Source: a virus
Taxonomy: Duplodnaviria; Caudoviricetes
Virus record (IMG/VR): IMGVR_UViG_3300025889_000351
Location: 1 to 37,776 of that record
Reading direction: 5' to 3' (one strand)
DNA length: 37,776 bases
Shown: one piece after another, positions 1-28,689 of the stretch
How the letters are laid out: every line of letters starts with the position of its first letter
Numbering within the stretch: position 1 is the stretch's first letter
Position numbers and translations under genes: made by a program
The notes under the pieces: model-generated
Databases searched by the model: none
What the model was told of the DNA's origin: nothing
What the model saw: the letters and a program-made list of their open reading frames with translations, nothing else

Positions 1-411
1 GAATGGCGGAGGCTGGCCGAGGAGAAGGTGCGGCGAGTTGCCGCACCCTCACCGGCATCGCAAGGAAAGAACCAAGGGAAACGCGAGGCCGCAAGACAGC
101 TTGGCGTTTCCGAGAGAGAGGTCCGCCGCGCCGCCAAAATCGCCAACCTCCCTGATGCCATCAAGGACCAGGGCCGCGCCGAGAACTGGTCTGCACGGCG
201 GTTGCTCAATGCTGCTCAGACCGATGAGCAAAAGGAGAAGAAGAAGGTGAAGAAGGCGGCGGACCAGCAAGTAGCCGAAACGGAGGTGGAGTATTTTGCC
301 GAATGGCTCCACCGACGGGTTGATCCTGGGGAGTTGCCAGCGCTGATCTCATGGCTGGAAGGATGTCCGCCAAAGGCTGTCATCAAAGCTCTGCGGAGGC
401 TTGCATCTTGA
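1..411 (+). CDS. 5'-truncated HTH protein, probably the C-terminal part of a phage ParB/Spo0J-like protein
   Basis: Frame open from base 1 (EWRRLAEEKVRR...); HTH-like REAARQLGVSEREVRRAAKIANL; TGA at 409-411 overlaps the polymerase start. Confidence 0.55.
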   Translation, partial: EWRRLAEEKVRRVAAPSPASQGKNQGKREAARQLGVSEREVRRAAKIANLPDAIKDQGRAENWSARRLLNAAQTDEQKEKKKVKKAADQQVAETEVEYFAEWLHRRVDPGELPALISWLEGCPPKAVIKALRRLAS

Positions 412-2198
412 AACCCACGACCATCCTCGACGTTGAGATATTCCGCAACTGGTTCGCAGTCGGGATGCTCGACGTCGGCGATGGTCGTGTGGACTTCCTC
501 GAGCTGCACGACGACCAACCGCTCGATGTCGATCGCCTGCGCTACGTGCTTGACAGGAACAGGCTGATCACCTTCAACGGAGATGGCTTCGACATCCCGA
601 TCATCCACTACGCCCTGGCCGGAGCGACAACCCAGCAGCTCCACGATGCCGCTGGCGCAGTGATCAACCAGAACCTGCGCGGATGGCAGCTTGCCGATCG
701 CCATGGGTTTAAGTTGGGGAAGCCCCGCGACCACGTTGATCTGATCGAGGTCGCGCCCGGCATGGCCAGCTTGAAGATATACGGTGGCCGCATGCACTCG
801 GCCCGGCTGCAGGATCTGCCGGTCGATCCGAACGACGAGGTCAGCCCGACCCAGCGCGTGGTGCTGAAGGCATACTGCGAGAACGATCTGCACACCACGC
901 GCGATCTATACGAGACGCTAAAGCCCCAGCTTGAGCTGCGCCGGGTGATGGGTCAGCAATACAAGATCGACCTCCGCTCAAAGAGCGACGCGCAGATCGC
1001 CGAGGCCGTGATCACGAGCGAGGTGACCGAGGCCGTGGGCACTGTGCTCCGGCCAGAGATCGCGCCGGGGACGGCTTACCGATACAAGGCGCCGGACTTC
1101 CTGCAGTTCAGCACTCTGCCCCTACAGGTGAAACTAGGCGAGATCCTGGACGCCGAGTTCGTCGTCAAGGACAACGGTGGCATCACCGAGCCCCCTGCCC
1201 TGGCGGGTCAGACGGTGACGATCGGCGCCGGCGTCTATCGCCTTGGTATCGGCGGGCTGCACTCCAGCGAGACGTGTCAGTCCGTGGTGGCCGACGAGGA
1301 GCATGTGCTCCTCGATCGTGACGTGGCCAGCTATTACCCCTCGATCATCCTGCGCCTGGGCCTTGAGCCTGCGCAGATGGCCGGCGGCTTTCTCAGAGTT
1401 TACCAGAGCATCGTCGACCGCCGCCTGAAGGCCAAGGCCGCCGGCGATAAGGTCGCAGCCGACACACTGAAGATCGTGGTGAACGGCAGTTTCGGAAAGC
1501 TCGGCAGCAAATGGTCCCGGCTATACAGCCCCGACCTCATGGTGCAGGTGACGGTGACCGGCCAGCTCTGCCTGCTGATGCTGATCGAGGCGCTCGAGGC
1601 CGAGGGCATCAGGGTCGTCAGCGCGAACACCGACGGCATCGTCATCCACTGCCACCGCGGCGACGTCGGAGAGATGGAGCGGATCGTCACTGACTGGGAG
1701 CAGCGCACCGGGTTCGTGACTGAGGAGACCAGTTACCGCGCGCTGTATAGCCGCGACGTCAACAACTACATCGCCATCAAGCCGGACGGCGGGGTCAAGG
1801 TAAAGGGCGCCTTCGCCCCGCCCGGCCTGATGAAAAACCCCAATTCCGAGATCAGCACCGAGGCCGCGATCCGGTGGCTGCGCGATCACACGCCGCTGGC
1901 GCAGACGATCCAGGGCTGCACCGACATCCGCAAGTTCGTCGTCGTCCGCCAGGTGAAGGGCGGCGCGATCGACCAGGACGAGAAGCCGATCGGCAAGGCG
2001 GTGCGGTGGTATTACTCGACCTCGGTCACCGGCCCGCTGCGCTACGCGGTGAACGGTTACACCGTGCCGAGATCCGAGGGCGCCCGCCCGCTGATGGAGT
2101 TGCCGGCGGAGATGCCGCCGGATGTCGATTTCGCTTGGTATGAGCAGGAGGCCGCCGATATTCTGGCCGCGGTTGGAGGGTTCAATGGACTGGTTTAG
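408..2198 (+). CDS. Family B-type DNA polymerase with 3'-5' exonuclease domain
   Basis: ExoI ILDVE, ExoII FNGDGFD, ExoIII YCENDL; polymerase motifs DVASYYPS, KIVVNGSFGK, SANTDG; TTG start at 408 with GGAGG at 395-399 preferred over the track start at 351. Confidence 0.9.
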   Translation: MKPTTILDVEIFRNWFAVGMLDVGDGRVDFLELHDDQPLDVDRLRYVLDRNRLITFNGDGFDIPIIHYALAGATTQQLHDAAGAVINQNLRGWQLADRHGFKLGKPRDHVDLIEVAPGMASLKIYGGRMHSARLQDLPVDPNDEVSPTQRVVLKAYCENDLHTTRDLYETLKPQLELRRVMGQQYKIDLRSKSDAQIAEAVITSEVTEAVGTVLRPEIAPGTAYRYKAPDFLQFSTLPLQVKLGEILDAEFVVKDNGGITEPPALAGQTVTIGAGVYRLGIGGLHSSETCQSVVADEEHVLLDRDVASYYPSIILRLGLEPAQMAGGFLRVYQSIVDRRLKAKAAGDKVAADTLKIVVNGSFGKLGSKWSRLYSPDLMVQVTVTGQLCLLMLIEALEAEGIRVVSANTDGIVIHCHRGDVGEMERIVTDWEQRTGFVTEETSYRALYSRDVNNYIAIKPDGGVKVKGAFAPPGLMKNPNSEISTEAAIRWLRDHTPLAQTIQGCTDIRKFVVVRQVKGGAIDQDEKPIGKAVRWYYSTSVTGPLRYAVNGYTVPRSEGARPLMELPAEMPPDVDFAWYEQEAADILAAVGGFNGLV

Positions 2199-2283: not shown

Positions 2284-2560
2284 ACGCGACATCGAGTTCT
2301 ACCTCGTGCGTCGTGTGCTGAAAGCCGGCGGCGACACACGCAAAGTCCAGTGGATCGGTCGTGCCGGCGCGCCGGATCGTCTGGTCCTGCTGCCCGGCGG
2401 CATTGCCTGCTGGGTCGAGTTGAAGGCGTCCGGTAAGTTGCCCAGACCCGGACAGTTTCGCGAGCACCAGATGCTGCGCCGCCTCGGCCAGCGGGTGGAG
2501 GTGATCGACTCGATCGAGGGTGTGGACATGCTCATGGAGGCACTGCTAGATGTCGCGTAG
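2264..2560 (+). CDS. VRR-NUC domain nuclease (PD-(D/E)xK)
   Basis: ERDIE...GAPDRLVLLP...WVELK...Q motif; usual position between polymerase and SNF2 helicase. Confidence 0.9.
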   Translation: MPSRQNERDIEFYLVRRVLKAGGDTRKVQWIGRAGAPDRLVLLPGGIACWVELKASGKLPRPGQFREHQMLRRLGQRVEVIDSIEGVDMLMEALLDVA

Positions 2561-4022
2561 CGCCGGCCTCCTCCGTCGTTGCTTCCCTGCGGAGTCGGCC
2601 CTCACCCCTGGCCCTGGGGTCTTTCCTCCTCCAGCGAGGCCGGCGCGCTCTTACAAGCCCCGCCCCTTCGCGCCCCTTGCCATGGACCTGTTTGCTCGCC
2701 AAGAGCGGTGCGCGCTCTGGGCAAGGCCGGGGATGGGCAAGACAACCATGGCGCTGACCCACCTCGAGGTGCTGCACAACCTCTTAGGCGAGAGCGCGCC
2801 GACCCTGGTGCTGGCTCCCCTGCGCGTCGCCCGTGACGTCTGGCCAACCGAGGTGGGGAAATGGGACCACCTCTCTGGGCTCAAGGTCGTGCCGATCGTC
2901 GGCACCCTGGCCGAGCGTCGGGCGGCACTGCGGCAGGACGCGCCGATCTATACGACGAACTATGAGCAACTCCCCTGGCTGGTTGCCGAGCTCGGTCGAG
3001 ACTGGCCGTTCGGCACGGTGGTGGCGGACGAGAGCACGAAGCTGAAGTCCTTCCGCCTCCGCCAAGGCGGCCAGCGGGCCAGGGCACTGGGCACGGTGGC
3101 GCACACCAAGGTGGAGCGGTGGATCAACCTGACCGGCACGCCGGCGTCGAACGGTCTGGCGGACCTGTGGGGTCAGACGTGGTTCCTCGACGCCGGCGAG
3201 CGGCTGGGCCGGACGTTCTCGAGCTTCCAGCAGCGATGGTTCAGGCCGACCCGGCAGGGGCAATGGCACCAGTGGGTGCAGCTTCCGGGCGCGCAGGAGG
3301 ATATCCACAAGCGGCTGTCTGACATCTGCCTGACGCTCGACCCGCGCGACTGGTTCGACCTGCGCGAGCCGATCGTCAACGTGATCAACGTCGAGCTGCC
3401 GCCGAGCGCGCGAGCAAAGTATCGCGAGATGGAGCGCGAGCTGTTCACGCTGATCAATAGCCAAGAGGTCAGCGCGGTCAACGCCGCGGCGAGATCCGGG
3501 AAGTGTCTGCAGCTTGCCAACGGCGCGGCGTATACCGCCGAGGGGGGTGGCACCTGGGTCGAAGCTCACACCGAGAAGCTGGACGCGCTCGAGGAGCTGG
3601 TCGAGGCCACCGGAGATGACCCGCTGCTGGTGACTTACCTGTTCCGCTCCGACCTGGCTCGGCTGATGCGCCGGTTCCCCCACGCGCTGGACCTGGCGCA
3701 GGCTGACGATATGGCGAAGGCTAAGGCCGGCAAGGGTAAGGTGTGGCTCGGCCACCCTGCGTCGATGGGCCACGGCGTCGACGGGCTGCAAGAGCACTGC
3801 AACACGGTCGTTGTGTTCGCCCAGGACTGGAACCTCGAATACCACGACCAGGTGATCGAGCGCGTCGGGCCGATGCGCCAGATGCAGGCCGGCAAGGACC
3901 GCCCTGTGTTCATCCACTATATCGTGGCGCACAAGACGATCGACGAGCTGGTGATGCTCCGCCGCCAGGGGAAGCGCGACGTGCAGGAGCTCCTGATGGA
4001 ATACATGAAAGGGAAGACATGA
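2550..4022 (+). CDS. SNF2-family (SF2) helicase; exact start uncertain
   Basis: Walker A PGMGKT, motif Ia LVLAPLRV, Walker B VVADEST, LTGTP, HPASMGHGVDGLQ, QVIER. Confidence 0.92.
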   Translation: MSRSAGLLRRCFPAESALTPGPGVFPPPARPARSYKPRPFAPLAMDLFARQERCALWARPGMGKTTMALTHLEVLHNLLGESAPTLVLAPLRVARDVWPTEVGKWDHLSGLKVVPIVGTLAERRAALRQDAPIYTTNYEQLPWLVAELGRDWPFGTVVADESTKLKSFRLRQGGQRARALGTVAHTKVERWINLTGTPASNGLADLWGQTWFLDAGERLGRTFSSFQQRWFRPTRQGQWHQWVQLPGAQEDIHKRLSDICLTLDPRDWFDLREPIVNVINVELPPSARAKYREMERELFTLINSQEVSAVNAAARSGKCLQLANGAAYTAEGGGTWVEAHTEKLDALEELVEATGDDPLLVTYLFRSDLARLMRRFPHALDLAQADDMAKAKAGKGKVWLGHPASMGHGVDGLQEHCNTVVVFAQDWNLEYHDQVIERVGPMRQMQAGKDRPVFIHYIVAHKTIDELVMLRRQGKRDVQELLMEYMKGKT

Positions 4023-4288
4023 CGAACATCTCGAACATCCTGATCCAGCGGGGGACGACGTATGGTCCGTTCAGCGATCAGGCAGCTCTCACGCAGGACA
4101 TCAAGACGGTGATGAAGCAGCGCGCCGGCTGGACTCGGCTGACCGACAGCCAGCGGGAGGCGCTGGAACTGATCGCCAGCAAGATCGCGCGCGTGATTAA
4201 CGGCGATCCGAACTATCTCGATTCCTGGATCGACATCGCCGGATATGCCAGACTGATCGCCGACCAGATCGAACGGGGTGAGAGTTGA
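4019..4288 (+). CDS. DUF6378-like small helical phage protein
   Basis: RGTTYG...KIARVINGDPNYLDSWIDIAGYA; ATGA overlap with helicase stop, so start 4019 rather than 3743. Confidence 0.75.
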   Translation: MTNISNILIQRGTTYGPFSDQAALTQDIKTVMKQRAGWTRLTDSQREALELIASKIARVINGDPNYLDSWIDIAGYARLIADQIERGES

Positions 4289-4332: not shown

Positions 4333-4388
4333 CGGCGAGCAGGTCGTCCCCCCTACCTGCTTGTCGGTCCTTACAAAAGTGTAAGGAC
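4333..4388 (+). other. Two adjacent stem-loops (structured leader or small RNA candidate)
   Basis: CGGCGAGCAGGT/ACCTGCTTGTCG 12-bp stem with two G-U pairs and loop CGTCCCCCCT; GTCCTTACA-AAAG-TGTAAGGAC perfect 9-bp stem. Confidence 0.5.
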
Positions 4389-4409
4389 ATACTATACATT
4401 ATGCGCACT
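4382..4409 (-). other. dif-like XerC/XerD recombination site (candidate attP) with degenerate XerD arm
   Basis: Minus strand AGTGCGCATAA-TGTATA-GTATGTCCTTA vs E. coli dif GGTGCGCATAA-TGTATA-TTATGTTAAAT: 21/28 identical, 16 contiguous; intergenic. Confidence 0.72.
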
Positions 4410-4426
4410 AAAGGGGGTGATTTTAG

Positions 4427-4440
4427 ATAGCGGTTGCTAT
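4427..4440. promoter_or_regulatory. Operator-like palindrome ATAGCGGTTGCTAT (copy 1)
   Basis: Near-identical copy ATAGCAGTTGCTA at 5347-5359; each copy follows a dif-like site and precedes a gene. Confidence 0.45.
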
Positions 4441-4458
4441 AGGGATTTTTGGCAGGAA

Positions 4459-5280
4459 ATGGACTTCACCTTGCACCTGGGGGATTGCTTGGAGCTGATG
4501 AAGACATTGCCGGACGGGTCGGTTGATCTGGTTCTGTGCGATCTGCCGTATGGGACGACCCAAAACAAATGGGATTCTGTGATTCCTCTGGGAAACTTGT
4601 GGACTGAGTATCGTCGCGTCTGCACCGGGGCAATCGTTCTTACGGCAGCGCAGCCGTTCACCAGCGCACTGGTCATGAGTAACCTGCAGATGTTCAAATA
4701 CGAGTGGGTGTGGTGTAAGAACAAGGCGTCGGGCCACCTGAACGCCAAAAAGCGTCCACTTCAAGCCCACGAAAGCATCCTTGTATTTGCGGAAGGCACC
4801 GCGCCATACACGCCCCAGAAGTCCGACGGGCACAGACCAGCCAATTACGCCAAGAGTATTAATCGGAGCAGTAACTACGGAGCGCATCGAGAAACTGTTC
4901 ACAAAGGCGGCAACACCGATCGATACCCGAACACGCTGCTGCCCGTATCGGTGGTGAACAACGACTCGCCTGAGCGGTGCCACCCAACCCAGAAGCCCGT
5001 CGCCCTGATGGAGTATCTAGTGCTCACCTACTCCAACGAAGGCGACACGGTCCTCGACAACACGATGGGCTCAGGCACCACCGGCGTGGCTGCTGTGAAA
5101 CATGGGAGACGCTTCATCGGCATGGAGAAAGATCCAGATTACTATCGGATCGCCCAGCAGCGGATCGAGAAAGCGTGGTTAGAGCGGGAACCTGCTAAAG
5201 CCCCCAGCAAGGAGAAAGTGCAACGTGTCCGTTTACATAATCCCAAGGCTACGAACTGGGTGCAGTGCGAATTGTTCTAG
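4459..5280 (+). CDS. Orphan N6-adenine/N4-cytosine DNA methyltransferase (beta-class motif order)
   Basis: GDCLE, catalytic DLPY (DPPY-type), HPTQKP, SAM-binding DNTMGSGTTG, FIGME; ATG 4459 with AGGA upstream. Confidence 0.92.
   Translation: MDFTLHLGDCLELMKTLPDGSVDLVLCDLPYGTTQNKWDSVIPLGNLWTEYRRVCTGAIVLTAAQPFTSALVMSNLQMFKYEWVWCKNKASGHLNAKKRPLQAHESILVFAEGTAPYTPQKSDGHRPANYAKSINRSSNYGAHRETVHKGGNTDRYPNTLLPVSVVNNDSPERCHPTQKPVALMEYLVLTYSNEGDTVLDNTMGSGTTGVAAVKHGRRFIGMEKDPDYYRIAQQRIEKAWLEREPAKAPSKEKVQRVRLHNPKATNWVQCELF
5230..5257 (-). other. Degenerate third dif-like sequence inside the MTase 3' end
   Basis: Plus strand CGTTTACATAA-TCCCAA-GGCTACGAACT; XerD-like arm 8/11 to ATTTAACATAA with correct 11-6-11 geometry, but core and XerC arm are poor. 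Confidence 0.3.
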
Positions 5281-5311
5281 CTAAATCAATGATGTGGAAC
5301 GGATCACCCCC

Positions 5312-5339
5312 CCCTGTCCGTTTATACATTATGCGCCCT
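5312..5339 (-). other. Second dif-like site (XerC arm plus core only), direct repeat of 4393-4406
   Basis: Minus strand AGGGCGCATAA-TGTATA-AACGGACAGGG; 14-bp TATACATTATGCGC identical at 4393-4406 and 5323-5336. Confidence 0.55.
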
Positions 5340-5368
5340 TGACTTTATAGCAGTTGCTAAAATAGTAT
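5339..5368 (+). promoter_or_regulatory. Sigma70-like promoter with operator palindrome (copy 2) in the spacer
   Basis: TTGACT (5339-5344) N18 TAGTAT (5363-5368), or extended -10 TGC-TAAAAT (5355-5363); TAGCA-gt-TGCTA at 5348-5359. Confidence 0.55.
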
Positions 5369-5391
5369 CGCGAACAGTAACGAGGAATCCC

Positions 5392-5934
5392 ATGCGCCGA
5401 CTGTCTCCCACATGGAAGCCCACCTGGACGTCTGAGCAGGATCGGGCGATCGTCGACTACCGCGACCAGGAGGGGTGCTCCTGGCCGGAGATTGGCCGGC
5501 GCATCGGTCGCAAGGAAAGCAGCATCGTTGCCCGCTACCGCGCGCTTACCGAGTCGGGCTTCAACCCCCACCGCCCTCTGGAAATACCGGCGGGCACCGA
5601 CCAGCGGATCGAGATGATGGTCCGTGCCGGCATGGCTGACGGCGAGATATCCATCCGCGTCGGCCTGCCGCACGGTGTTGTCAGCGCCCGGCGGAAGATG
5701 CTGCAGATATTCCGCACCCCGGCCCGGCGCGGCAACAAAGAGGTCAACCCGCAGCCAGCGGATCTCGGCGACATCGTCGGCCCGGTCCTCTGCGGGTTCG
5801 CGGAGGTCAAGGACTGGGTCGCCCAGCACGCGCCGCGCGCGAAGACCCTGGACGATGTCAACCAGGTCCGCCTGCGCCTGGGCCTACCGCCTTTTGCAAT
5901 CGAACGCCGTCACATGGAGGAAAGCCGTGTTTAA
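5392..5934 (+). CDS. Myb/SANT-like (GcrA-like) tandem-HTH DNA-binding protein
   Basis: WTSEQDRAI...GCSWPEIGRRIGRKESSIVARY fits the Myb repeat pattern; second HTH-like GMADGEISIRVGLPHGVVSARR; GAGG RBS. Confidence 0.65.
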   Translation: MRRLSPTWKPTWTSEQDRAIVDYRDQEGCSWPEIGRRIGRKESSIVARYRALTESGFNPHRPLEIPAGTDQRIEMMVRAGMADGEISIRVGLPHGVVSARRKMLQIFRTPARRGNKEVNPQPADLGDIVGPVLCGFAEVKDWVAQHAPRAKTLDDVNQVRLRLGLPPFAIERRHMEESRV

Positions 5935-6124
5935 CCCTGCTGATCTCGCCGAGGCGCGCATGCTGTTCGCGCGCCTGCAATCCCAGCTCACGCTGCTGTC
6001 GAGCCAGATCGACGGCTACACACTGGCCCTGGAGGATGCGGTCGTCTCCCTGACCGACGCCCAAGACCATCTCACCGCAGCCATCAATGAGGAGGAACGG
6101 TTCCATGAAGACCTTCGCGCTTGA
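5927..6124 (+). CDS. 65-aa coiled-coil hypothetical protein
   Basis: GTG 5927 with GGAGG at 5916-5920; heptad-like LQSQLTLLSSQIDGYTLALEDAVVSL. Confidence 0.6.
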   Translation: MFNPADLAEARMLFARLQSQLTLLSSQIDGYTLALEDAVVSLTDAQDHLTAAINEEERFHEDLRA

Positions 6125-6194
6125 CGTCCTGGCCGGCGCCCTGTGCGCCATCACCGCGATCCTGGTCGTGATCGCCTTTGCGGTCATCGGCTGA
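6105..6194 (+). CDS. 29-aa hydrophobic membrane peptide (MKTFALDVLAGALCAITAILVVIAFAVIG)
   Basis: GGAGG at 6091-6095, ATG 6105, TGA 6192-6194 overlapping the next ATG (TGATG). Confidence 0.6.
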   Translation: MKTFALDVLAGALCAITAILVVIAFAVIG

Positions 6195-6547
6195 TGCTCG
6201 AGACCCTGGCCCGCCCGCTGCGCGACCTGGAGGAGCTGATCGCCGCGATCGGCGCCCGCCAGGTCTGCCGCGAGCTCAACATCCACGACAAGACTCTTTA
6301 CCGCTGGCGCACCCGGCGATCCACCATGCCGGGTCGGCAGCACATCACAGTCAAGATGCTGCTGGGCGATCTGCCCGGCACCGCGGGCCAGTGGACCGGC
6401 TGGAAGTTCGTCGCCGGTAAACTGGTCTCACCAACCGGAGATCAGTTCCAACCCGGCGAGATCCTCGCCATCGGGCTCAACCACCAACGCATCGCCGCCC
6501 TCGAGCAAGAGGTCATCGCCCTGCGCGTCAAGCTGGAAGTCGCTTAG
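6194..6547 (+). CDS. HTH + DUF3653-like protein; candidate XafT-like Xer activation factor
   Basis: N-terminal HTH GARQVCRELNIHDKTLYRW; WTGWKFVAGKLVSPTGDQFQPGEI resembles the DUF3653 W-x-G-W-x-F-x-x-G-x-L-x-x-P-x-G pattern; C-terminal coiled coil; coupled ATG at 6194. Confidence 0.65.
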   Translation: MLETLARPLRDLEELIAAIGARQVCRELNIHDKTLYRWRTRRSTMPGRQHITVKMLLGDLPGTAGQWTGWKFVAGKLVSPTGDQFQPGEILAIGLNHQRIAALEQEVIALRVKLEVA

Positions 6548-11976: not shown

Positions 11977-14900
11977 TCACCGCTGCCGACTTTCCTTGCT
12001 CGAGCTGCCGGTCGCCAGGCCACGGGCCATGTCCACCGGGCTGGTCGGCTCGATCTTGCCTTGGGCCATGCCGGCGGCGTAGCCCAGCGGGCGAGCGGCT
12101 GCGTAGAACGGCAGGCCGGTGATCAGCGTGGCGGCAGCCGCCACGTCGCGGACGACGTTCTGCGCTTTGGCCTCGCCACGGATGGCTTGGTAGACGTCGT
12201 AGGGAACCCCGACCGCGGCTTCAGCCAAACTGACCGCTGGCGACAGAGACATACGATCGTCGGCGGGGTTGTTGTTGAACCGAGCGATCGACGCATTGAT
12301 CAACTGCCCGGCGAACGGAACCATACCTGTCATACCGCGGATCGTGCCGAAACCGAACACCGCCATCAGCCAGTCGTCCAGATACTCCCCGTCCTTGTCC
12401 TCGTCATCCGGCCCACCACGGAATGCTAAGGCGATCGCCTCCGCGACCCATATCTGGACAAACAGGCCCATGAATGCGACATAGAGCAGCTTGCCGGCGC
12501 CCTTGCGCAGACCGACTGCTTGGATGATTTGTAATGCAGCCGTGGCGTTGGTGTTCGCCAGCATATTGAACCAGCTCGTGAACTGCGTGAGAGATCGTGA
12601 CAAGGCACGACCGCCCTCCATCTGGCTTATGTCTTCTGGTAACGTCGAGCCCTGGGTCTGACGGATAACGCCGTCAGCAAACCGCACGGCGTCGGTCTGG
12701 TTCATGCCCTGCTCGATCGCCTGGTTGTAGGCCGCCGTCCAGATGATCGGGCTCATCGTATTGTCGACCGCGGACTGCATGAAATATGCGTGCTGGCGAG
12801 TCCACGCCTGGCTGCGCTCCAGCATGGACGGGTCGACCAGGATGTTCTCGACGGCGTCGTTCATCGCCGCCACCTCGTTCAACATGCGGTCCTTCATGAA
12901 GGGCGACATGGTGGCAACTGTCTCCTTCATCTGCCGAGGGCTGGTCGTGAACTCCGCCGTGGCCTGCAGCATCAAGGTAGGACGAACCTTGACGGCTGCA
13001 GACGCGAACCCGGTGATCTGCTGCGCCGTGTTGCTCAGATTGGCGAACATCAGCGCCATGCCGGCGCGAGATCTAGCTTCACTGAGGATCCGAGTCAGGT
13101 TCCGATTCCCACTCGTCGGCGTCTCAACCTGCTGCTTAGCAGCCCGGTTCAGCCATGGGATCAACATGCCTTCGTAGGCGCCCGGCGCCACACGGTCCAG
13201 GGCGTAGCTCACATCGCGCTGCGTCAGGATGCGGCGCACGTCGTTGACCGCGCCCTGCATGTGCGAGAACATCAGCACCTTGTCCATGTGCTGGGCCAGG
13301 GCACGGAGATCGAGCAGCAGCGGCTTGTTGTATTCCACGCGGGACTTGGTGAACCCGCTCGGTGCCGAGGGGAACGCATACGCCATCGCGTCGTTCTCGC
13401 CCTCGGCAAGCTCGCGCATGCGGGCGTCCTTGACGATGCGGGTGTCGGTCTGCGCCGGCACGTAGCCACCACGGTAGGTGCCGAACGGCGTCGCCACCGG
13501 GTCGGCGGTGATCTCGGCAAAATACCGACCGAACACCTTGCGGTGGGTCTTCTGCGCCAGGGGCTTCATCTCCTCGAGCAGATCCCACACGCCCTGGGCA
13601 AAGTCCCAATGCGCCTTGGTCAGCTTACCCTCGGCGTGCATCCGGTCGATGAACGCATCCCACCGGCTGGTGTCGACCGAGCCGTCCTCGAGCTCCGTCG
13701 CCCAACCCCGGCCCAGCAGCAGCTTGCGCTTGTTGCTCTCGTTGCCGGTGTGCAGGATGGCGTGCAGCAGTTCCGCCGTGCCGCTGTCGCGGGCGTTGCC
13801 GAATGTGTAGCCAAGCTCCGCTTGCGCGTTGATCTCGCCGCGCGGAACGAACGGCCCCACCGCCTTGACCAGATCCGTGAACCGCCGGCGGTATTCCGTC
13901 CTGGCCGACCGATACCTATCCGCGGCGTCCTTGATCGGCTGGAAGACATAGCGCAGGAACGGCCCGCCATACTTGCCGTCCATCCCCTCCGCCCATTGCT
14001 CCACGCGCCGGAGGATGGCCTTGGCGAACTGCAGCTTGATGCGCAGCTCCTCGCGCCGGGTGATCGCGCCGGCCTCGCCGGGGATGGTGTCGGGGATGCC
14101 GATCTCGTCCATCCGCTCCATCAGCGGCTGGGCCGCCTCGCGGATGTCGATCATCTTGCCGTCGATCTCCACCTCGCGCGATGTCTTCGCCAGATCCCAC
14201 ATGCTGCGCAGATCGTCGAACAGCCCGCGCGCTTCCTCCATCGTCATCTCGTTGAACGGCATGGCGTTGGCGACGGCGTTGTCAACGGTGGGCTTGAGCG
14301 CGGCGTAGACGGCGGGATCTTCGCGCTGCACCACATCCATGTAGGCGGTGGCCGTCTTCTCCAGGCGCGGGGATATCCCGTGCGCGGCCATGATCGCGCG
14401 CATGGCGTTGACCACGTCCGGGTTGCGGCCACCCTTGACCACGCGCTCGTCGTTGCCACGCGCCACCCGGCTGTAGAACTCGAGCTGCTTCTTGATCTCT
14501 GCCTGCGCCTCCACCAGCGCCTTGACGGCGTAGTGGTTCAGCACCTGGTCGCGCTTGGCCTGCACGGCGGCCTCGGTGTTGCCGGCGGCGGTCTCCTTCT
14601 GCCAGGTCTTTGCCGCCTTGGCCTCGGCGGCCCGGTGCAACTGCGCCGCCTTCTTCAGATCAGTGATCCGCCGGCGGGCAACCAGGTTCTCCGCGAACTG
14701 CTTGGCCGCCGCCATGATGGTGTTCACGGTGATGGCCCGACCGGAGGAGCTGACCCGCCCGGTGTCCGTGCGCCCGGCCATCATCTCCTGCTGCGCCTTG
14801 AGCTCGGTGGCCAAAGACTTGGCGCGGGCCTCGTTGTGGATGGCCTCGCTCGCCGCCTGCTCGATCGCCTCGGGGCTGGACAGATCGCCGTGCCGCTCCA

Positions 14901-17900
14901 GCATGCGCTGGTCGGTCATGCCCTCGATCACGCTGTTCATCGGCTCCGCGGCCAGGATCTCGCGCACGAGCTGATCGCCGGAGGTGTAGCCGAACATATC
15001 GGCGACGATGTCGGGATGCAGACCCTCCTTCGCCGTCATCCCGCGCAGACGGGTCAGATCGGGACGCCCGAGCATGGTCTCGGGATACATCTCGGCCAGG
15101 GCGGCGGTGCTCAACCGGAACCCCTTGTCGGCCTTGACGTCTTCGCCCTGCTCCGTGGTTATCTCGCCACGGCGCAGCCATCGCATCGCCCGGTAGAGCG
15201 GCTGCTGTTCGACCTCGGCCTGCACCTCTGCGCGGATGCCCTTGCGCAGATCGCGCGCCTCCCGCTGCAACTGGGCGATCTTCTTGTTGCGCGCGTTGAT
15301 CGTCCACTTGAGATCGCGCAGGGAGCGGGCCTGCAGCTTCTCGATCGCCTCGTTCGTCGCCTCGAAGTCAGGCAGCAATCCGGCAGTGCGCTCGGCCTCG
15401 GCGATCTGCTCGTCCGTCGCCACCAGGCGATCGAACACTTGGCGGATCTCGGGCGAGATCTGCAGGTTGCGGCTGGACATGAACTGGGTCAGCGACTTGT
15501 AGACGTTGACCATCCAGGAGCGGAACCGGCGGAACAGCGGCTGCAGCTCCTGGCTCGGCGCCTTGCCCTCGAACAGATACGCCTCGAAGCTCTCCGCCCA
15601 CCGCTCGTGGTAGGGGCGCTTCTCGTCCAGCGTCATGTTGTTCCAGGTCGCCAGGTCGGGGATGCCGAACCACTTCAGCGTGGTGACCATGTCCTGCTGG
15701 ATCTGCGCCGGCGCGTTCGGCTGGCTGGCGATGTCCGCCATCACCTCGAGGAAGAAGTGTCCGCTCTCGTGCAGGAAGCTCGAGAGGTTCGCCGACTCAC
15801 CCAGGGTGATCAGCAGGTTCTGCGGGTCGAAGGTGGCGTTGGGGGACAGGGCGGTGGCTGGCTGCCGCAGCACACTGGGGTCCATCAAGGTCTGTGGCCC
15901 CGGAGCGGGAGGAGCGATCCCAAAGGCGTCAGGGTGCAGCGCCACATAAGACGTGCCTCCCATTTCCTCGTCTGCGACCGAGATATAGTCTACTCCCCGA
16001 CCCCGGAGAGCGTTTCTAAACTTCTCGACGCCCCCGTATTTGTTCACGATCTCGGAATATAATTTATCGAGGGACGAGTAGTGTCTCGCCTTCCCGCGCA
16101 AGATCGCGGGAAGTGCGTGTAATGTCACCAAGCGCTCCGACAAGTCTTGACTGTTAGCCCACGGGCCAATCGCCGCCAGCACCGCCCCGAACGAGCGGGG
16201 GTCGTCGGCGTCCGTGATGTTCCTCCGCGTCTCTTGACCGAGCCTCCCCCAATCGTAGGCGTCGAACACCTCGTTTGTTGCGTGGAATGCCCGAACCTCC
16301 TCTGCCTGGGTGTCATACGTCGACGACTGCCTCAGAACATTCGGATCGTTCGGGTCGAACGTGCCGACGTTGCCGATGGCGGATTTGATTTGCTCGGGGT
16401 GGAATGCGACGAACTCCCCAGGGCCATCCTCAAATGAAGCGATGACACCATCATATCCGCGTTCAATGAGAACGTCCCTAATAGCTCGGGAGATATCAGG
16501 TTCTAAGGAAAAGTCAGGTTCCGCGTTTGGGTCAAAAGAAAATCCCGTGCGCCTGATTACTTCGTCGTGGATCTCCGCCGGCAGCGGCGTGCCGTTCATC
16601 ACAAGTCCACGGGCGCCCTGCCCTTTTGGCCCCCACATAAACGGATTCTTGAGAGATAAATAAACAGGGACCACATTTGGGGAACCCAAACTGTTGCGGC
16701 CAAGGTTCGTGTAGGCAGACCCAATATCCGGTCGGTTTGAGAAATAAAACCCTTGCCCGATCCATCCGCTATCCGTCGTCTTACCGCTCATGTTCAGATC
16801 GAACACATTAAAGTCCGCGCCCGTCCCATGATAAACAACCAACGGCTTACCCTCGGCATCCACCACCTTGCTGTCGCCGAACCAGTTCTTGAACGCCGGC
16901 GTCTGGGTCTGGTCGCCGCCTGCATTCAGCACATTCCGCCCACCCACGATATTCGCTCCGACCCGGAGCGGATAGCGGGTGTAAAGTTCCTCCGGGGTCA
17001 CGCCCATGCGGTTGGCGGTGACGCTATACCAGGACGACACCAGCCGGGCGTAGGCGTCGTTCACGTCCGTGGTGAACCGCTTCGCCGTGTTCAACTGGTC
17101 AAGGATGTTGGTCTTGACCGTCTCCACGCTCGCAGCCCACGCCGTCTGGTCCTGCGCCTCGGCCAGCACGCGCTCGGCTTCTTGTTGGAGCATCTCGTCG
17201 CTGAGAGACCTGGCCGCCACCGTCTCCGACTGGTTGAGCGCGTCCGGCGCCGATCGGCCCAGCTCGACCACCGCCTGCTCCAGCGGTGTGCCCGGCGCGA
17301 TCGTCAGCACGTCCGCCATCGGGATCGCCACCGGCATCTCGGCTGACGGCGCCTCGTCCAGCGCCTGGCGCGTCGACTCCGGCAGGGCGGCGACGATCTC
17401 CACCGGCATCTGGTTCAGCACGCCGGCGTCCAGGTAGACGGTCTCGTCGGTGATGCCGCCCATGATGTCGCGGAACGCCTCCGGCGCCTTCAGTCTGACC
17501 TCAGTCTGACCGGCAGCCTGCAACGCGCCCGCATACCGCTGGGCGTCCTGGATGCTTTGTTCTTGCGCACCGAACTGCTGCGCCCGCCGCTGGGCGGCGA
17601 TGAAGTCGACGCTACCGATCCCAGCGCCCAAGGTGATCGTCGTGCCGATGAACGCATCACGCGCCTGGGTCAGCGCGTCCAGGGTGTCCTTGCTGAGATC
17701 GTCGGGGAAGAACGTCTGGCCAGACAGGGATTGCGCGATCTCCCGACCGCCGACACCGGCCCACGCCTGGACGAACTCCTCGAAGCCCTCGGTGGCCCCG
17801 ACGGTCAGCATCTTGCGCGACGCGGAGATCAGCGCCTCGCGGGTGGCCGGCGACGCCAGCGCCAGCTTGACTTGGGACATCACCGCCTTCTTGGCAGCGT

Positions 17901-18837
17901 CCCTGCCGACAACCTTGCCGAGACCTGGTGCAAGGCGCGCCAACACCACGTCACTGAGAAGCTCGATCGAGCCGTTGACGATACCCACCGCCGTGGATAC
18001 CTGCCGGGCGATCTCTTTCGGGATCGTCTGGCCGGCGGCGTCTTTCATCTGGGTCAGTTCGTCGTAAGCGAACGCCGCCTCGAGGTTGTAGGCGTAATTG
18101 AAGGAGCCTGTTAGGAACCCAGCGCCGGCACCGATGAAGCCGCCGGGAACCGCGCCCACGCCTCCGGCCAACGCGCCCATGCCGGCGCCAACCGCCAAGC
18201 CCGCGGCGGCACCCTGCGCACCGGCGCCTGTGCTATCAATGAACTGTCGAACGGAATACGAGCCAACCCTGGCGAGATAGCCGGCGGTGCTCTCGTTGTC
18301 CTGCATCTTGCCGAACTGCTGCATCTGATCGCGTATTTCTTTCAGACGCTGTTCCTGCTGCTCGGTCCTGGCGCCACCGGATCTGTCGATGTTGATCAGG
18401 TGCGCCATCTCAGCTTGTAGGGACGCTTGCCGCCAGCCGGTGCTCAAGCCAGACGTGAAGCCACTGGTCTGACCCTCGATCGTCACCAGCGGGCCGACGT
18501 CCTTGTGAACCATCTGCGCGTAGGCTGGGTTGTCGCGCAGCATGATGGACAGGTTGGGCGCCTGATACAGATCCCGCTCGATCGCCGCAGCCCTGTTCTC
18601 GGCCTCGACATCGAACAAGTTGCGCAGCACCAGGTCAGTGGACAACCCCGTCTGCTGCGACAGATTGACCGCACGCGCGGCCTCATCCGGGTTGGTCTTG
18701 ACACCGTTTCTGATCGACGCGCGCAGACGAGCCTGATCGAAGTCGACCACGTCGCCGACCGCCGCGTCGAACGGGTTGGTGGATGCGGCCTGTTCCGGGG
18801 CGACTACTTGTCCGACAGCCTCGTCGAATGGGTTCAT
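11977..18837 (-). CDS. Giant (2286 aa) internal virion/DNA-ejection polyvalent protein with ART-like modules and a HExxH metallopeptidase motif
   Basis: Position after tail tubular and ejection genes; mostly helical; FKNWFGDSKVVD...VYHGT...GFYFS...GYDGVI...EFVAFHPEQIKS; FLHESGHFFLE. Confidence 0.8.
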   Translation of the reverse strand: MNPFDEAVGQVVAPEQAASTNPFDAAVGDVVDFDQARLRASIRNGVKTNPDEAARAVNLSQQTGLSTDLVLRNLFDVEAENRAAAIERDLYQAPNLSIMLRDNPAYAQMVHKDVGPLVTIEGQTSGFTSGLSTGWRQASLQAEMAHLINIDRSGGARTEQQEQRLKEIRDQMQQFGKMQDNESTAGYLARVGSYSVRQFIDSTGAGAQGAAAGLAVGAGMGALAGGVGAVPGGFIGAGAGFLTGSFNYAYNLEAAFAYDELTQMKDAAGQTIPKEIARQVSTAVGIVNGSIELLSDVVLARLAPGLGKVVGRDAAKKAVMSQVKLALASPATREALISASRKMLTVGATEGFEEFVQAWAGVGGREIAQSLSGQTFFPDDLSKDTLDALTQARDAFIGTTITLGAGIGSVDFIAAQRRAQQFGAQEQSIQDAQRYAGALQAAGQTEVRLKAPEAFRDIMGGITDETVYLDAGVLNQMPVEIVAALPESTRQALDEAPSAEMPVAIPMADVLTIAPGTPLEQAVVELGRSAPDALNQSETVAARSLSDEMLQQEAERVLAEAQDQTAWAASVETVKTNILDQLNTAKRFTTDVNDAYARLVSSWYSVTANRMGVTPEELYTRYPLRVGANIVGGRNVLNAGGDQTQTPAFKNWFGDSKVVDAEGKPLVVYHGTGADFNVFDLNMSGKTTDSGWIGQGFYFSNRPDIGSAYTNLGRNSLGSPNVVPVYLSLKNPFMWGPKGQGARGLVMNGTPLPAEIHDEVIRRTGFSFDPNAEPDFSLEPDISRAIRDVLIERGYDGVIASFEDGPGEFVAFHPEQIKSAIGNVGTFDPNDPNVLRQSSTYDTQAEEVRAFHATNEVFDAYDWGRLGQETRRNITDADDPRSFGAVLAAIGPWANSQDLSERLVTLHALPAILRGKARHYSSLDKLYSEIVNKYGGVEKFRNALRGRGVDYISVADEEMGGTSYVALHPDAFGIAPPAPGPQTLMDPSVLRQPATALSPNATFDPQNLLITLGESANLSSFLHESGHFFLEVMADIASQPNAPAQIQQDMVTTLKWFGIPDLATWNNMTLDEKRPYHERWAESFEAYLFEGKAPSQELQPLFRRFRSWMVNVYKSLTQFMSSRNLQISPEIRQVFDRLVATDEQIAEAERTAGLLPDFEATNEAIEKLQARSLRDLKWTINARNKKIAQLQREARDLRKGIRAEVQAEVEQQPLYRAMRWLRRGEITTEQGEDVKADKGFRLSTAALAEMYPETMLGRPDLTRLRGMTAKEGLHPDIVADMFGYTSGDQLVREILAAEPMNSVIEGMTDQRMLERHGDLSSPEAIEQAASEAIHNEARAKSLATELKAQQEMMAGRTDTGRVSSSGRAITVNTIMAAAKQFAENLVARRRITDLKKAAQLHRAAEAKAAKTWQKETAAGNTEAAVQAKRDQVLNHYAVKALVEAQAEIKKQLEFYSRVARGNDERVVKGGRNPDVVNAMRAIMAAHGISPRLEKTATAYMDVVQREDPAVYAALKPTVDNAVANAMPFNEMTMEEARGLFDDLRSMWDLAKTSREVEIDGKMIDIREAAQPLMERMDEIGIPDTIPGEAGAITRREELRIKLQFAKAILRRVEQWAEGMDGKYGGPFLRYVFQPIKDAADRYRSARTEYRRRFTDLVKAVGPFVPRGEINAQAELGYTFGNARDSGTAELLHAILHTGNESNKRKLLLGRGWATELEDGSVDTSRWDAFIDRMHAEGKLTKAHWDFAQGVWDLLEEMKPLAQKTHRKVFGRYFAEITADPVATPFGTYRGGYVPAQTDTRIVKDARMRELAEGENDAMAYAFPSAPSGFTKSRVEYNKPLLLDLRALAQHMDKVLMFSHMQGAVNDVRRILTQRDVSYALDRVAPGAYEGMLIPWLNRAAKQQVETPTSGNRNLTRILSEARSRAGMALMFANLSNTAQQITGFASAAVKVRPTLMLQATAEFTTSPRQMKETVATMSPFMKDRMLNEVAAMNDAVENILVDPSMLERSQAWTRQHAYFMQSAVDNTMSPIIWTAAYNQAIEQGMNQTDAVRFADGVIRQTQGSTLPEDISQMEGGRALSRSLTQFTSWFNMLANTNATAALQIIQAVGLRKGAGKLLYVAFMGLFVQIWVAEAIALAFRGGPDDEDKDGEYLDDWLMAVFGFGTIRGMTGMVPFAGQLINASIARFNNNPADDRMSLSPAVSLAEAAVGVPYDVYQAIRGEAKAQNVVRDVAAAATLITGLPFYAAARPLGYAAGMAQGKIEPTSPVDMARGLATGSSSKESRQR

Positions 18838-26728: not shown

Positions 26729-28689
26729 GGGCAGGACTCCGGTAGTTGCTGGCGCCAGACCGCCTCGGTGATCGCCAGGATCTCGCTGCTGTTCAACTCA
26801 GTCGCGCCGTAGGTGATGTCTGGCGCGTCGCCCAGCGGCAGCGTCTTGTTCCAGATCGCGGCGGCCAGGGCCTCGATCGTCGATTGCGAGAGCGAAGATA
26901 TAAAGCTGGCCGACAGGGTCGCGGATACGCCGGCGAGCGCGTAGCTCTCCGACAGCGCCGTCAGCAGACGCCCGGCCAGAACCGAGGCGGCCTGTCCGGT
27001 GAGGTCGAACTCGCCCAGTTCTGCCGACAATATCCGGGAGACAATGAGCCCCACGTCTTGGCCCGTGAGACCGAACGAACCCGCCTCCGCCGCGATCGTG
27101 CGGCCATAGCTCAGAGCCGCGTCAATGCCGGCGAGACTATACGCGCCGTCCGCCGCCGTCAGCGTGTAGGTCGGGCCAGACGGCGTGTAGTCCAGTGTCG
27201 CGTCATAGCCGGTGAGCGCATAAGTCCCCTGCCCTGCCAGCAGCGTGCGCGCCGCGATTAGCCCAGCCGTGTTGCCGGCGATGGTGAACGCACCTGCGCC
27301 GGCCAGGATGGTGCGACCAGCGGTCAGGCTCGCCGCATTGCCCGTGATCGTGAACGCCCCGGCTCCTGCGGCGAGTGTCCTGCCATAACTCAGCGCCGCG
27401 TCCTGCCCCGCCAGGGTGAACGAGCCGTTCGCCGCCACCAACGTGTAGGTCGGCCCGGCGATCGGCGTATAGGTCAGAACCGCGTCATATCCGGTTAGAC
27501 CGAATGTCCCGGCGGCGGCGGTGAGCAACCGTCCAGCCAGCAGATTAGCGTTGACACCCGTCAGGTCGAACGACCCTGCGCCAGCGGTCAAAGACCGACC
27601 AGCCAACAGCCCAGCAGCCTGTCCCGATAGCGAGAACGATCCTGCGCCAGCGGTCAAAGACCGACCAGCCAACAGCCCAGCAGCCTGTCCCGATAGCGAG
27701 AACGATCCTGCGCTTGCAGTCAGGGATCGACCTGCTAGAAGCCCAGCAGCCTGTCCAGATAGAGAGAACGACCCCGCGCCTGCGGCCAGAGAACGACTTG
27801 CTAGAAGTCCGGCAGCCTGTCCTGATAGGGAGAACGATCCTGCGGCGGCGGTCAGAGATCGACCTGCTAGAAGCCCGGCATCCTGTCCTGATAGGGAGAA
27901 CGATCCTGCGGCGGCGGTCAGAGATCGACCAGCCAATAGACCCGCCGCGACGCCTGATAGCGTAAACGATCCCGCCTCACTGGTCAGCGTGTAGGTCGGC
28001 CCTGCTGGCGCACCGCCGCTAGTCTGAAAAGTGTCTTCCTGAAACCCATCGAACTGAAAAGCACTAATCTCTAAAACGGCATTTTGTCCGGTCAGGGAGA
28101 ACGTCCCCGACCCCGCCACGACCGCGTAAGTTCGGGATAATGTCGCCGCGTTGCCTGTCAGCGAGAATGAGCCACCAGCCGCCGTCAGCGTGTAGGCGTT
28201 CGTATAGGTGACGACAATCTGGATGCTGGTCAGGTTAATCGTCGGGTTGGCGTCTGACGACTGAACGCCGAAATATTGGAGGGGGTTTGACCCCGTGCCG
28301 TTTACGTCATCGACTGTCCACGCAACGCCAGTTCTTGGATTATTCGCCCAAGAATCCTCGCGGGCGGTTATTGAGCCATTTGATGGGTTGTGTGTACTGG
28401 CGTCGTACGTAGAACCGCCAATCGTCAGACGAGCGCCGATATTACAGTTTTGCGCGGCGTTCTTGGAGTCGTAGTATTGAACAGCGACAGAACTGATCGT
28501 CGCCGTGCTTGGAAGGCTGAACGCTGAGAAACCAAACTGAATGGCACCAGCAGTGGTGCCGTGCGTCAGAACATCGGTGCCACCCGTGTCTGGGTAGTCA
28601 TCAACCGCCTGATATCTAGTGCCTGCCGATCCTGTCCACGTGCCAGACGCGGAGATGTCGCTCGTCGGCGCGCGGGTTTGCGTGGTCAT
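26725..28689 (-). CDS. Repeat-rich putative fibre protein, 654 aa, with 22-aa tandem repeats
   Basis: (LLAGRSLTAxAGSFSLSGQxAG)n; Ala/Gly/Thr/Ser-rich. Confidence 0.7.
   Translation of the reverse strand: MTTQTRAPTSDISASGTWTGSAGTRYQAVDDYPDTGGTDVLTHGTTAGAIQFGFSAFSLPSTATISSVAVQYYDSKNAAQNCNIGARLTIGGSTYDASTHNPSNGSITAREDSWANNPRTGVAWTVDDVNGTGSNPLQYFGVQSSDANPTINLTSIQIVVTYTNAYTLTAAGGSFSLTGNAATLSRTYAVVAGSGTFSLTGQNAVLEISAFQFDGFQEDTFQTSGGAPAGPTYTLTSEAGSFTLSGVAAGLLAGRSLTAAAGSFSLSGQDAGLLAGRSLTAAAGSFSLSGQAAGLLASRSLAAGAGSFSLSGQAAGLLAGRSLTASAGSFSLSGQAAGLLAGRSLTAGAGSFSLSGQAAGLLAGRSLTAGAGSFDLTGVNANLLAGRLLTAAAGTFGLTGYDAVLTYTPIAGPTYTLVAANGSFTLAGQDAALSYGRTLAAGAGAFTITGNAASLTAGRTILAGAGAFTIAGNTAGLIAARTLLAGQGTYALTGYDATLDYTPSGPTYTLTAADGAYSLAGIDAALSYGRTIAAEAGSFGLTGQDVGLIVSRILSAELGEFDLTGQAASVLAGRLLTALSESYALAGVSATLSASFISSLSQSTIEALAAAIWNKTLPLGDAPDITYGATELNSSEILAITEAVWRQQLPESCP
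27571..27975. repeat. 66-bp coding tandem repeat, about 6 well-conserved units plus degenerate flanking units
   Basis: CGA(T/C)CC(T/C)GC recurs at 27571, 27637, 27703, 27769, 27835, 27901 and 27967; units 27575-27640 and 27641-27706 are identical. Confidence 0.9.

What the first reader, a model, noticed from the sequence alone, without database searches (positions are those of the whole stretch)
4382..6547. Candidate tailed-phage IMEX: TLC-type dif-like attP plus an XafT-like (HTH + DUF3653) gene
Seen: an intergenic 28-bp site, AGTGCGCATAA-TGTATA-GTATGTCCTTA (minus strand), matches E. coli dif at 21/28. Its XerC arm and central hexamer are essentially intact and 6 of the 7 mismatches fall in the XerD arm. 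About 1.8 kb downstream, the last gene of the arm (6194-6547) has an HTH followed by WTGWKFVAGKLVSPTG, which I read as DUF3653-like. No integrase is present in the window. Established (from recall): the Vibrio cholerae TLC satellite integrates at dif through an attP with a degenerate XerD arm, using XafT, an HTH + DUF3653 protein that activates XerD without FtsK. The best-known Xer-exploiting elements are filamentous phages, satellites and genomic islands. Inference: this podovirus-type phage may integrate at the host dif site, or resolve its own multimers, using host XerCD and its own activator. I do not know of this being described for such phages.
Basis: partly seen in the sequence, partly recalled or inferred. 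Interest (0 to 1): 0.9.

Follow-up and report, generated by a model that had tools for sequence, protein, structure and literature searches.

The report
Tailed phage borrowing host Xer recombinase
A family of freshwater tailed phages carries, where its relatives keep an integrase, a partial copy of the bacterial chromosome-unlinking site (dif) beside a relative of a known Xer-activating protein, so these phages likely use the host's XerC/XerD enzymes to enter the chromosome; small gene cassettes are found inserted at that same site.

Summary
The site at 4382-4409 matches a host-type dif at 21/28 (best of 200 shuffles: 19), and 6194-6547 is HTH + DUF3653. Site and gene travel together in a freshwater podovirus clade sister to BPP-1: 12 of 12 near-complete relatives have the site, same orientation; 0 of 14 have an integrase. 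Close sisters have xis + integrase in this slot. A cI-like repressor occurs in 18 of 18 close genomes with the site, 0 of 3 without. All 37 distinct XerD arms keep T1 or G5, the published XafT rule. The protein is homologous to XafV of VGJphi, a tested Xer activator; homology to TLC XafT was not shown. Five empty/filled pairs show 0.4-1.6 kb cassettes inserted at the site's centre; many cassette genes modify DNA. No prophage junction was found, so integration at dif is inferred (about 0.6). My literature searches found no tailed IMEX. This scan noted dif-integrating tailed phages and dif-bounded phage cassettes before, on other DNA. New variant of a known kind.

The parts
4382..4409 (-). dif-like site 1: XerC arm 4399-4409, central hexamer 4393-4398 identical to host dif, degenerate XerD arm 4382-4392 that keeps G at the fifth inner position
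4367..4388 (.). 9-bp inverted repeat with 4-nt loop overlapping the outer XerD arm; a similar repeat at the same place in many relatives; role unexplained
   Evidence: covariation not beyond controls
4428..4439 (.). palindromic operator-like box (TAGCANNTGCTA type, one mismatch) in front of the methyltransferase gene
4459..5280 (+). N6/N4 DNA methyltransferase, cargo of the 930-bp segment between the two sites (a start at 4417 is possible)
   Evidence: PF01555 E 2e-29; GC 0.545
5312..5339 (-). dif-like site 2: XerC arm 5329-5339 and hexamer 5323-5328 kept; cassette-type XerD arm (2/11 to host, G5 kept) with its own short inverted repeat
5339..5368 (+). sigma70-like promoter match with the operator-like palindrome (5348-5359) in its spacer; likely drives the operon that ends in the DUF3653 gene
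   Evidence: consensus match only
5392..5934 (+). Myb/HTH-like putative regulator between site 2 and the DUF3653 gene
   Evidence: weak Pfam and PHROG hits
5927..6194 (+). two small ORFs of unknown function (5927-6124; 6105-6194, whose stop overlaps the next start)
   Evidence: sequence; no family for the first
6194..6547 (+). HTH + DUF3653 protein, homolog of the Xer activation factor XafV; last gene of the rightward arm; lacks the C-terminal tail of about 18 aa seen in relatives
2550..4288 (+). SNF2 helicase and DUF6378 gene: left anchor of the slot that holds xis + integrase + attP in BPP-1 and in sister phages

Best explanation
This is a likely integrase-free lysogeny module of a clade of BPP-1-related tailed phages: a dif mimic that would act as attP for the host XerC/XerD, plus a phage protein of the XafV/XafT family predicted to switch the recombinases on without FtsK. 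Shown here: the site, its co-occurrence and fixed orientation with the gene (XerC arm towards the gene), the absence of integrases, exchange of this module with xis + integrase in the same slot, linkage to a cI-like repressor, homology to XafV, and cassette insertions whose breakpoints lie in the hexamer plus inner XerC arm. Inferred: XerC binds the intact arm; the protein dimerises and recruits or activates the recombinases on a site that XerD binds poorly; because the hexamer equals that of host dif, a full crossover inserts the circularised genome at dif and rebuilds a working dif from the phage C arm and the host D arm; the repressor then holds lysogeny. The same reaction would insert and excise small promoter-bearing circles that carry their own dif-like site, building arrays of DNA-modification and anti-defence genes; the window's methyltransferase segment would be one such cassette. 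Odds by step: Xer acts on the site about 0.9; the protein is a Xer activator about 0.65; chromosomal integration at dif about 0.6.
For: Site at >=14/17 in 66 of 85 gene-anchored loci, always minus strand upstream of the gene, most often 48 bp from its start (loci redundant, some too short). 12 of 12 near-complete genomes have it in the slot at >=13/17 (11 at >=14; two stray 13/17 matches elsewhere; shuffle mean 0.45 at >=14 per 12 genomes). In SNF2-anchored loci (64 of 80 kept; 11 short, 5 duplicates dropped): gene+site 26, gene only 2, site only 5, neither 31 (kin not independent). PF00589 in 0 of 26 gene carriers (0 of 14 at >=90% complete); PF00239 in 0 of 14. 5 of 50 SNF2-anchored records have an integrase; none of the five has site or gene; L151 has excisionase + integrase in the slot and nests at 100/100 among gene carriers on the SNF2 tree; BPP-1 has helicase-xis-int-attP there. 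cI-like repressor (phrog_12107, E 7e-13) in 18 of 18 close-clade genomes >=90% complete with the site (one truncated) and 0 of 3 that lack site, gene and integrase, which sit at three places on the tree. 37 of 37 distinct XerD arms have T1 or G5 (32 G5; background 0.44), the rule for XafT-driven integration in PMC9226527 (passages). Family profile against VGJphi ORF136 = XafV: 94.9%, E 4e-8, 75 columns across both domains; XafV raised integration 10,000-fold in bioRxiv 10.64898/2026.06.12.731946 (section 10). Empty/filled pairs with both outer flanks >=83% identical and inner flanks 43-62%: 5 of 22 multi-site loci with an insert (L062/L061 97/98%, L017/L022 98/90%, L075/L048, L020/L082, L034/L079).
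Against: No integrated copy was seen. 0 of 84 primary sites have a host-type D arm (>=8/11); 25 of 25 phage-type D-arm matches in IMG/VR continue into the phage promoter; a host D arm + phage promoter pattern gave one unrelated-looking hit; the GTDB scan with two peptide patterns gave only 2 weak actinobacterial matches; no homolog cluster or 106 sits on a contig over 47.1 kb. These collections lean towards free virus contigs. Five loci keep the site without an intact gene, among them complete G028 (sites and repressor, no gene) and G027 (fragment); 2 loci keep the gene without a primary site. DUF3653 alone does not imply Xer activation: PSB15 of Xanthomonas inoviruses binds the packaging signal and is dispensable for integration (bioRxiv 10.1101/2024.03.19.585677, passages). 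XafV did not integrate the TLC-type attP, yet this site is TLC-type. The window's own segment has no matched empty allele (best 64/64%). The two distant carriers G018 and G020 did not match the repressor query, and the repressor region lies outside the window. The host is not established.
Confidence: 0.58

Rival explanations
1. Xer acts on the site, but only within phage DNA: to capture and drop gene cassettes and/or to resolve dimers of a plasmid-like prophage or replicating circles. The phage does not enter the chromosome.
For: Cassette insertion at the site is the only recombination with direct comparative evidence; no chromosomal junction found; the near-identical contig L058 encodes a ParB-like protein just upstream of the window.
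Against: The ParB-like gene has no homolog in 18 relatives. The module swaps with xis + integrase in one slot and is lost together with the repressor in 3 of 3 cases. A hexamer held identical to host dif (55-57 of 57 per position except one at 53) is needed for crossover with the chromosome, not for self-resolution; the variable-hexamer sites show cassette joints need not keep it.
Confidence: 0.24
2. The phage integrates at dif, but the HTH + DUF3653 protein is a transcription or DNA-binding factor and not a Xer activator; recombination runs by the basal XerC-first route or through FtsK.
For: PSB15 precedent; fold matches are generic XRE/Cro HTH regulators, none at E<=0.001 in the PDB; 5 loci keep the site without the gene; PMC12715192 calls P15/XafT a transcriptional regulator (section 10).
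Against: Full-length homology to the tested activator XafV; position next to the site as in TLC and VGJ; D arms of only 1-6/11 identity to host dif, the kind FtsK drove poorly in PMC9226527.
Confidence: 0.12
3. The motif is a phage regulatory element that resembles dif by chance or ancestry; cassettes move by microhomology recombination between repeated promoter modules, and the phages are lytic.
For: Every site is followed by a promoter-like stretch with an operator found 4-7 times per genome; the phages encode an exonuclease and a Gp2.5-like annealing protein; about 14 bp are shared at the breakpoints.
Against: The 13-bp core equals host dif and occurs only in this slot, not at the other operator-bearing promoters; the T1/G5 pattern and the pdif-like secondary sites are Xer-specific; genomes lacking the gene keep the operators but lose the site.
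Confidence: 0.06

Closest known systems
TLCphi satellite of Vibrio cholerae with XafT (PMC6744903; PMC9226527)
   Same: dsDNA attP with intact XerC arm, dif-identical central region and degenerate XerD arm; T1-or-G5 rule met; HTH + DUF3653 gene beside the site; no integrase
   Different: 42-47 kb self-sufficient tailed phage with its own polymerase, not a 4.7-kb satellite; direct homology to XafT not shown; activation and integration untested
VGJphi/f237 inovirus with XafV (ORF136) (bioRxiv 10.64898/2026.06.12.731946)
   Same: protein homologous over HTH and DUF3653; gene next to the att site
   Different: XafV is limited to XerC-initiated reactions and did not integrate the TLC attP; here the site is TLC-type and the virus is tailed dsDNA
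dif-type DJR (PM2-like) prophages, P16-attP-P15 module (PMC12715192)
   Same: lytic-capable dsDNA phage group in which dif-type and integrase-type members coexist
   Different: non-tailed; repressor adjacent to attP there, about 10 kb away here; no cassette arrays at attP in the passages read
Bordetella phage BPP-1 (Rauchvirus)
   Same: closest cultured portal match (56.5%), same gene order, sister group on the SNF2 tree, lysogeny module in the same slot
   Different: uses xis + tyrosine integrase and a tRNA-His attP; no dif-like site
dif modules bounded by pdif sites on Acinetobacter plasmids (search listing; details recalled)
   Same: one- or two-gene modules bounded by XerC/XerD-type sites, some with variable hexamers
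   Different: here all sites are direct repeats in one phage slot, next to a putative activator; cargo is DNA modification and anti-defence, not drug resistance; pdif sites mostly alternate in orientation (recalled)

Membership tests
IMEX (integrative mobile element exploiting Xer) | dif-like attachment site | tested here: met
   21/28, above all shuffles; conserved in 12 of 12 near-complete relatives
IMEX (integrative mobile element exploiting Xer) | no integrase of its own | tested here: met
   PF00589 and PF00239 in 0 of 14 carriers >=90% complete; PF07508 not searched; about 3.8 kb of the window's own 45.4-kb genome unseen after adding L058
IMEX (integrative mobile element exploiting Xer) | found integrated at host dif, bounded by hybrid sites | tested here: inconclusive
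   no junction; collections favour free virus contigs; Burkholderiales genomes could not be searched by profile
IMEX (integrative mobile element exploiting Xer) | integration depends on XerC and XerD | not testable with these tools
   needs an assay
TLC-type IMEX | intact XerC arm and central region, degenerate XerD arm with T1 or G5 | tested here: met
   37 of 37 distinct D arms; window site has G5
TLC-type IMEX | HTH + DUF3653 protein encoded beside attP | tested here: met
TLC-type IMEX | sequence homology to TLC XafT itself | tested here: inconclusive
   no match to ORFs of pTLC NC_004982, but that record gave no DUF3653 hit and no att motif
TLC-type IMEX | XerD-first, FtsK-independent crossover activated by the protein | not testable with these tools
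   needs in vitro or in vivo recombination
Xaf family (XafV/XafT) | homology to a tested Xer activation factor over both domains | tested here: met
   hhalign to VGJphi ORF136 94.9%, E 4e-8; shared PHROGs 1668 and 20671
dif (pdif) module / integron-like cassette array | accessory genes bounded by Xer-type sites, with empty and filled alleles breaking at the site | tested here: met
   26 of 82 non-redundant loci have 2-4 sites; 5 clear empty/filled pairs
dif (pdif) module / integron-like cassette array | free circular cassette, or the same cassette at different array positions | tested here: inconclusive
   among 38 cassettes only homologous cargo at 70-78% identity with different bounding sites; no circle seen

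The most novel reading that the evidence does not exclude
A tailed-phage IMEX whose attP doubles as an integron-like platform run entirely by host XerCD and a phage activator: one 28-bp site serves for lysogeny at dif and for ordered capture of promoter-bearing anti-restriction and anti-CBASS cassettes, and the whole module is freely exchanged with a conventional integrase module. The protein pairs a XafV-type sequence with a TLC-type site, so it could reveal what decides XerC-first versus XerD-first activation.
Probability: 0.4. Interest if true: 0.88.

Novelty: new variant of a known kind. Interest (0 to 1): 0.74.

Why it matters
Described Xer-exploiting viruses are filamentous, satellite or tailless. 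A tailed clade using this route would be scored as lytic by integrase-based lifestyle calls, so lysogeny in freshwater phages would be undercounted. The clade offers a natural swap (integrase module, dif module, neither) among near relatives, dozens of natural site variants that match the published XafT sequence rule, and a new activator for studying FtsK-independent Xer control. The cassette arrays suggest a host-recombinase route by which phages gain DNA-modification and anti-defence genes.

Tried and rejected
Complex prediction of E. coli XerD (105-298) with the DUF3653 part: no answer, score 0.00, no evidence either way. Laying contigs of 8 public runs on the region: no joint or loose end listed at either site; contigs show presence, not absence, and two runs may be this DNA's source. 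No RNA holder listed. Single-protein scan of IMG/VR found nothing; the alignment did. tblastn of the protein or a relative against cultured phages and plasmids: no significant match. 120 of about 200 IMG/VR stretches with a full host-type dif: two small contigs with weak profile hits, no member of this clade. S24 peptidase repressor search: 0 of 30, also absent in integrase carriers, so uninformative. Hairpin structure over the outer D arm: covariation not beyond controls. The operator palindrome as a binding site specific to the DUF3653 protein: rejected, it occurs 4-7 times per genome and in genomes without the gene. Foldseek: PDB only generic HTH; viral library only two uncharacterised tailed-phage proteins at E<=0.001. 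Direct comparison with TLC XafT failed for want of a usable record. A taxon-wide bacterial genome search could not be centred on Burkholderiales. The broad alignment was too divergent for a locus scan.
Full report
Observation. The window is an IMG/VR virus record, 88% complete, with BPP-1-type head, portal and tail genes on the minus strand and a polymerase, SNF2 helicase arm on the plus strand. The 28-mer at 4382-4409 is as described. It scores 21/28 against the commonest host-type dif among fetched loci, and no shuffled window exceeded 19 in 200 trials. ORF 6194-6547 passes the Pfam cut-off for DUF3653 and has weak HTH hits. A 45,375-bp metagenome contig (L058) encodes the identical protein and differs at 4 of 16,544 shared bases; it adds 3.8 kb with exonuclease, SSB and ParB-like genes and no integrase. 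About 3.8 kb remain unseen; in relatives that part holds repressor, cro-like gene, primase and small terminase.

Conservation. The protein has 88 close homologs. Of 85 loci fetched with their alignment, 66 have the C arm + hexamer at 14/17 or better, always on the minus strand upstream of the gene, most often 48 bp before the start (the set is redundant and some misses are short contigs or variant sites found, where 78 of 82 non-redundant loci had a C-arm match). All 12 near-complete genomes examined have one such site in the slot before the gene. Anchoring instead on the SNF2 gene, 64 of 80 loci were usable: 26 have gene and site, 2 the gene only, 5 the site only, 31 neither (many of the 31 are more distant phages, and kin are not independent).

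Module exchange. No tyrosine integrase occurs in 26 carrier records (14 at least 90% complete) and no resolvase-type serine recombinase in those 14; PF07508 was not searched. Five of 50 SNF2-anchored records do have an integrase and none of them has site or gene. In L151 excisionase and integrase fill exactly this slot, and its SNF2 nests among carriers with 100/100 support (48 rows; short and most distant loci left out). BPP-1, in the sister group, has helicase, xis, int and attP in the same order. A cI-like repressor divergent from a cro-like gene is present in 18 of 18 close-clade genomes at least 90% complete that have the site (one copy truncated) and absent from the 3 that lack site, gene and integrase. 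Two distant carriers gave no match to this repressor query. This pattern is what a lysogeny module should show; it is correlation, not proof.

Site anatomy. Among 57 distinct primary sites the inner seven bases of the C arm and the hexamer are nearly invariant, while the D arm matches host dif at only 1-6 of 11 positions; all 37 distinct D arms keep T at the first or G at the fifth inner position, against a background of 0.44. PMC9226527 (passages) reports that XafT-driven integration recovers these two motif classes and that FtsK accepts only dif-like arms. The outer D arm is often half of an inverted repeat; covariation did not exceed controls, so its role is open. Each site is followed by a promoter-like stretch with a palindromic operator that recurs 4-7 times per genome, also in genomes without the gene.

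Protein. The family profile aligns with VGJphi ORF136 over 75 columns spanning HTH and the WxGWRF hairpin motif (94.9%, E 4e-8), and shares two PHROG families with it. ORF136 is XafV, which raised integration 10,000-fold and is limited to XerC-initiated reactions (bioRxiv 10.64898/2026.06.12.731946, abstract and sections 10-11). Homology to TLC XafT could not be tested properly. PMC6744903 (parts 1-2 of 5 and passages) defines XafT as HTH + DUF3653 and finds most DUF3653 genes near dif. Against over-reading, the DUF3653 protein PSB15 is dispensable for integration (bioRxiv 10.1101/2024.03.19.585677, passages).

Cassettes. 26 of 82 loci have 2-4 sites, all in one orientation, separated mostly by 0.3-1.5 kb. 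Some added sites keep the dif hexamer and share one cassette-type D arm, found in IMG/VR only on 8 contigs of this clade. Others have an intact C arm, a variable hexamer and a more canonical D arm, like pdif sites; in 17 whole genomes these occur only in the slot. For 5 of 22 multi-site loci with an insert, a single-site relative matches both outer flanks at 83-98% while inner flanks fall to 43-62%, with the break inside the shared hexamer and inner C arm. The window has the same architecture but no matched empty allele (64/64%). Of 49 cargo ORFs scanned (of 69 called), 18 hit Pfam: 5 Mom, 5 DNA methyltransferases, Nmad5, the CBASS inhibitor Acb3, 2 Vut_1 and others. The Acb3-like gene also occurs outside the slot in relatives. 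I read the breakpoints as Xer crossovers; microhomology recombination over about 14 bp is not excluded.

What is missing. No prophage junction was found: 0 of 84 primary sites carry a host D arm, 25 of 25 phage D-arm matches run on into phage sequence, the junction pattern gave one unrelated-looking contig, GTDB species genomes gave no close homolog with two peptide patterns, and no homolog cluster lies on a contig over 47.1 kb. Complete G028 has sites and repressor but no gene, and G027 a fragment. The host is probably Burkholderiales, by inference from the closest cultured phages and one homolog filed under a Limnohabitans MAG on a phage-sized contig; holders laid are freshwater or aquatic runs.

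Novelty. Eight literature searches returned Xer integration for inoviruses, TLC and tailless DJR phages (PMC12715192, passages and section 10; PMC11630473, passages, where tailed prophages use their own integrases; bioRxiv 10.1101/633727, passages, an inovirus). None described a tailed IMEX or phage dif cassettes in what I saw; the library lacks most subscription papers, and the unseen supplements of PMC6744903 and the 2026 preprint may list tailed carriers. Microviruses at dif are recalled, not checked. This scan's own unchecked notes report dif-linked tailed phages and dif-bounded phage cassettes in other genomes; I saw them after forming this reading and do not count them as support.

Verdict. 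It works like a TLC/VGJ-type IMEX and meets the sequence-level criteria; membership awaits a junction or an assay. New variant of a known kind; interest 0.74.

Noticed in passing
L025, L026, L042, L015, L083, L129 (slot between SNF2 and the DUF3653 gene): Secondary sites with intact XerC arm, variable hexamer and a D arm near TTCCGTTCAGG; 26 of 30 have a stop triplet in the D arm on the coding strand, and many cargo ORFs end there. How they recombine with unlike hexamers is unexplained.
   Followed up: partly
L025:8236-9093: Cassette encoding a CBASS inhibitor Acb3 homolog (E 6e-70); homologs lie in the replication arm of other relatives.
   Followed up: partly
L006:8577-9772 and L032:4530-5674: Vut_1 transporter-like gene plus a 240-aa gene without Pfam hit, 78% alike in two phages but bounded by different site types; possibly a base-modification pair (inference).
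   Followed up: no
window 351-2198: The window has a family B-like polymerase where the annotated relative G005 has family A; of 12 relatives only G003 matches the window enzyme.
   Followed up: partly
L058:2552-4215, reaching window 1-411: A ParB-like gene and a phrog_5931 gene inserted before the polymerase; no ParB-like homolog in 18 relatives.
   Followed up: partly
window 11977-18837 (-): 2286-aa virion protein with an ART-PolyVal ADP-ribosyltransferase domain and LPD22.
   Followed up: no
window 27061-28196: Array of 66-bp repeats in a 654-aa tail-region gene.
   Followed up: no
window 36254-37717 versus relatives: Two terminase types in the clade: 63-79% identity in five of 12 genomes, 27-32% in seven.
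   Followed up: no
L009, L037, L040, L060, L066: An HNH-like gene (by eye, no Pfam hit) sits directly upstream of the DUF3653 gene; L040 has lost the site and L009 keeps only a variant.
   Followed up: partly
relatives, 48 bp between site and start codon: The start codon follows the promoter-like stretch by a few bases with no evident ribosome-binding site, suggesting a leaderless transcript (inference).
   Followed up: no
PQ492659.1 (L322): Limnohabitans phage DC33, 39 kb with a podovirus-type portal, is filed under Inoviridae in its record; it has no dif-like site.
   Followed up: no
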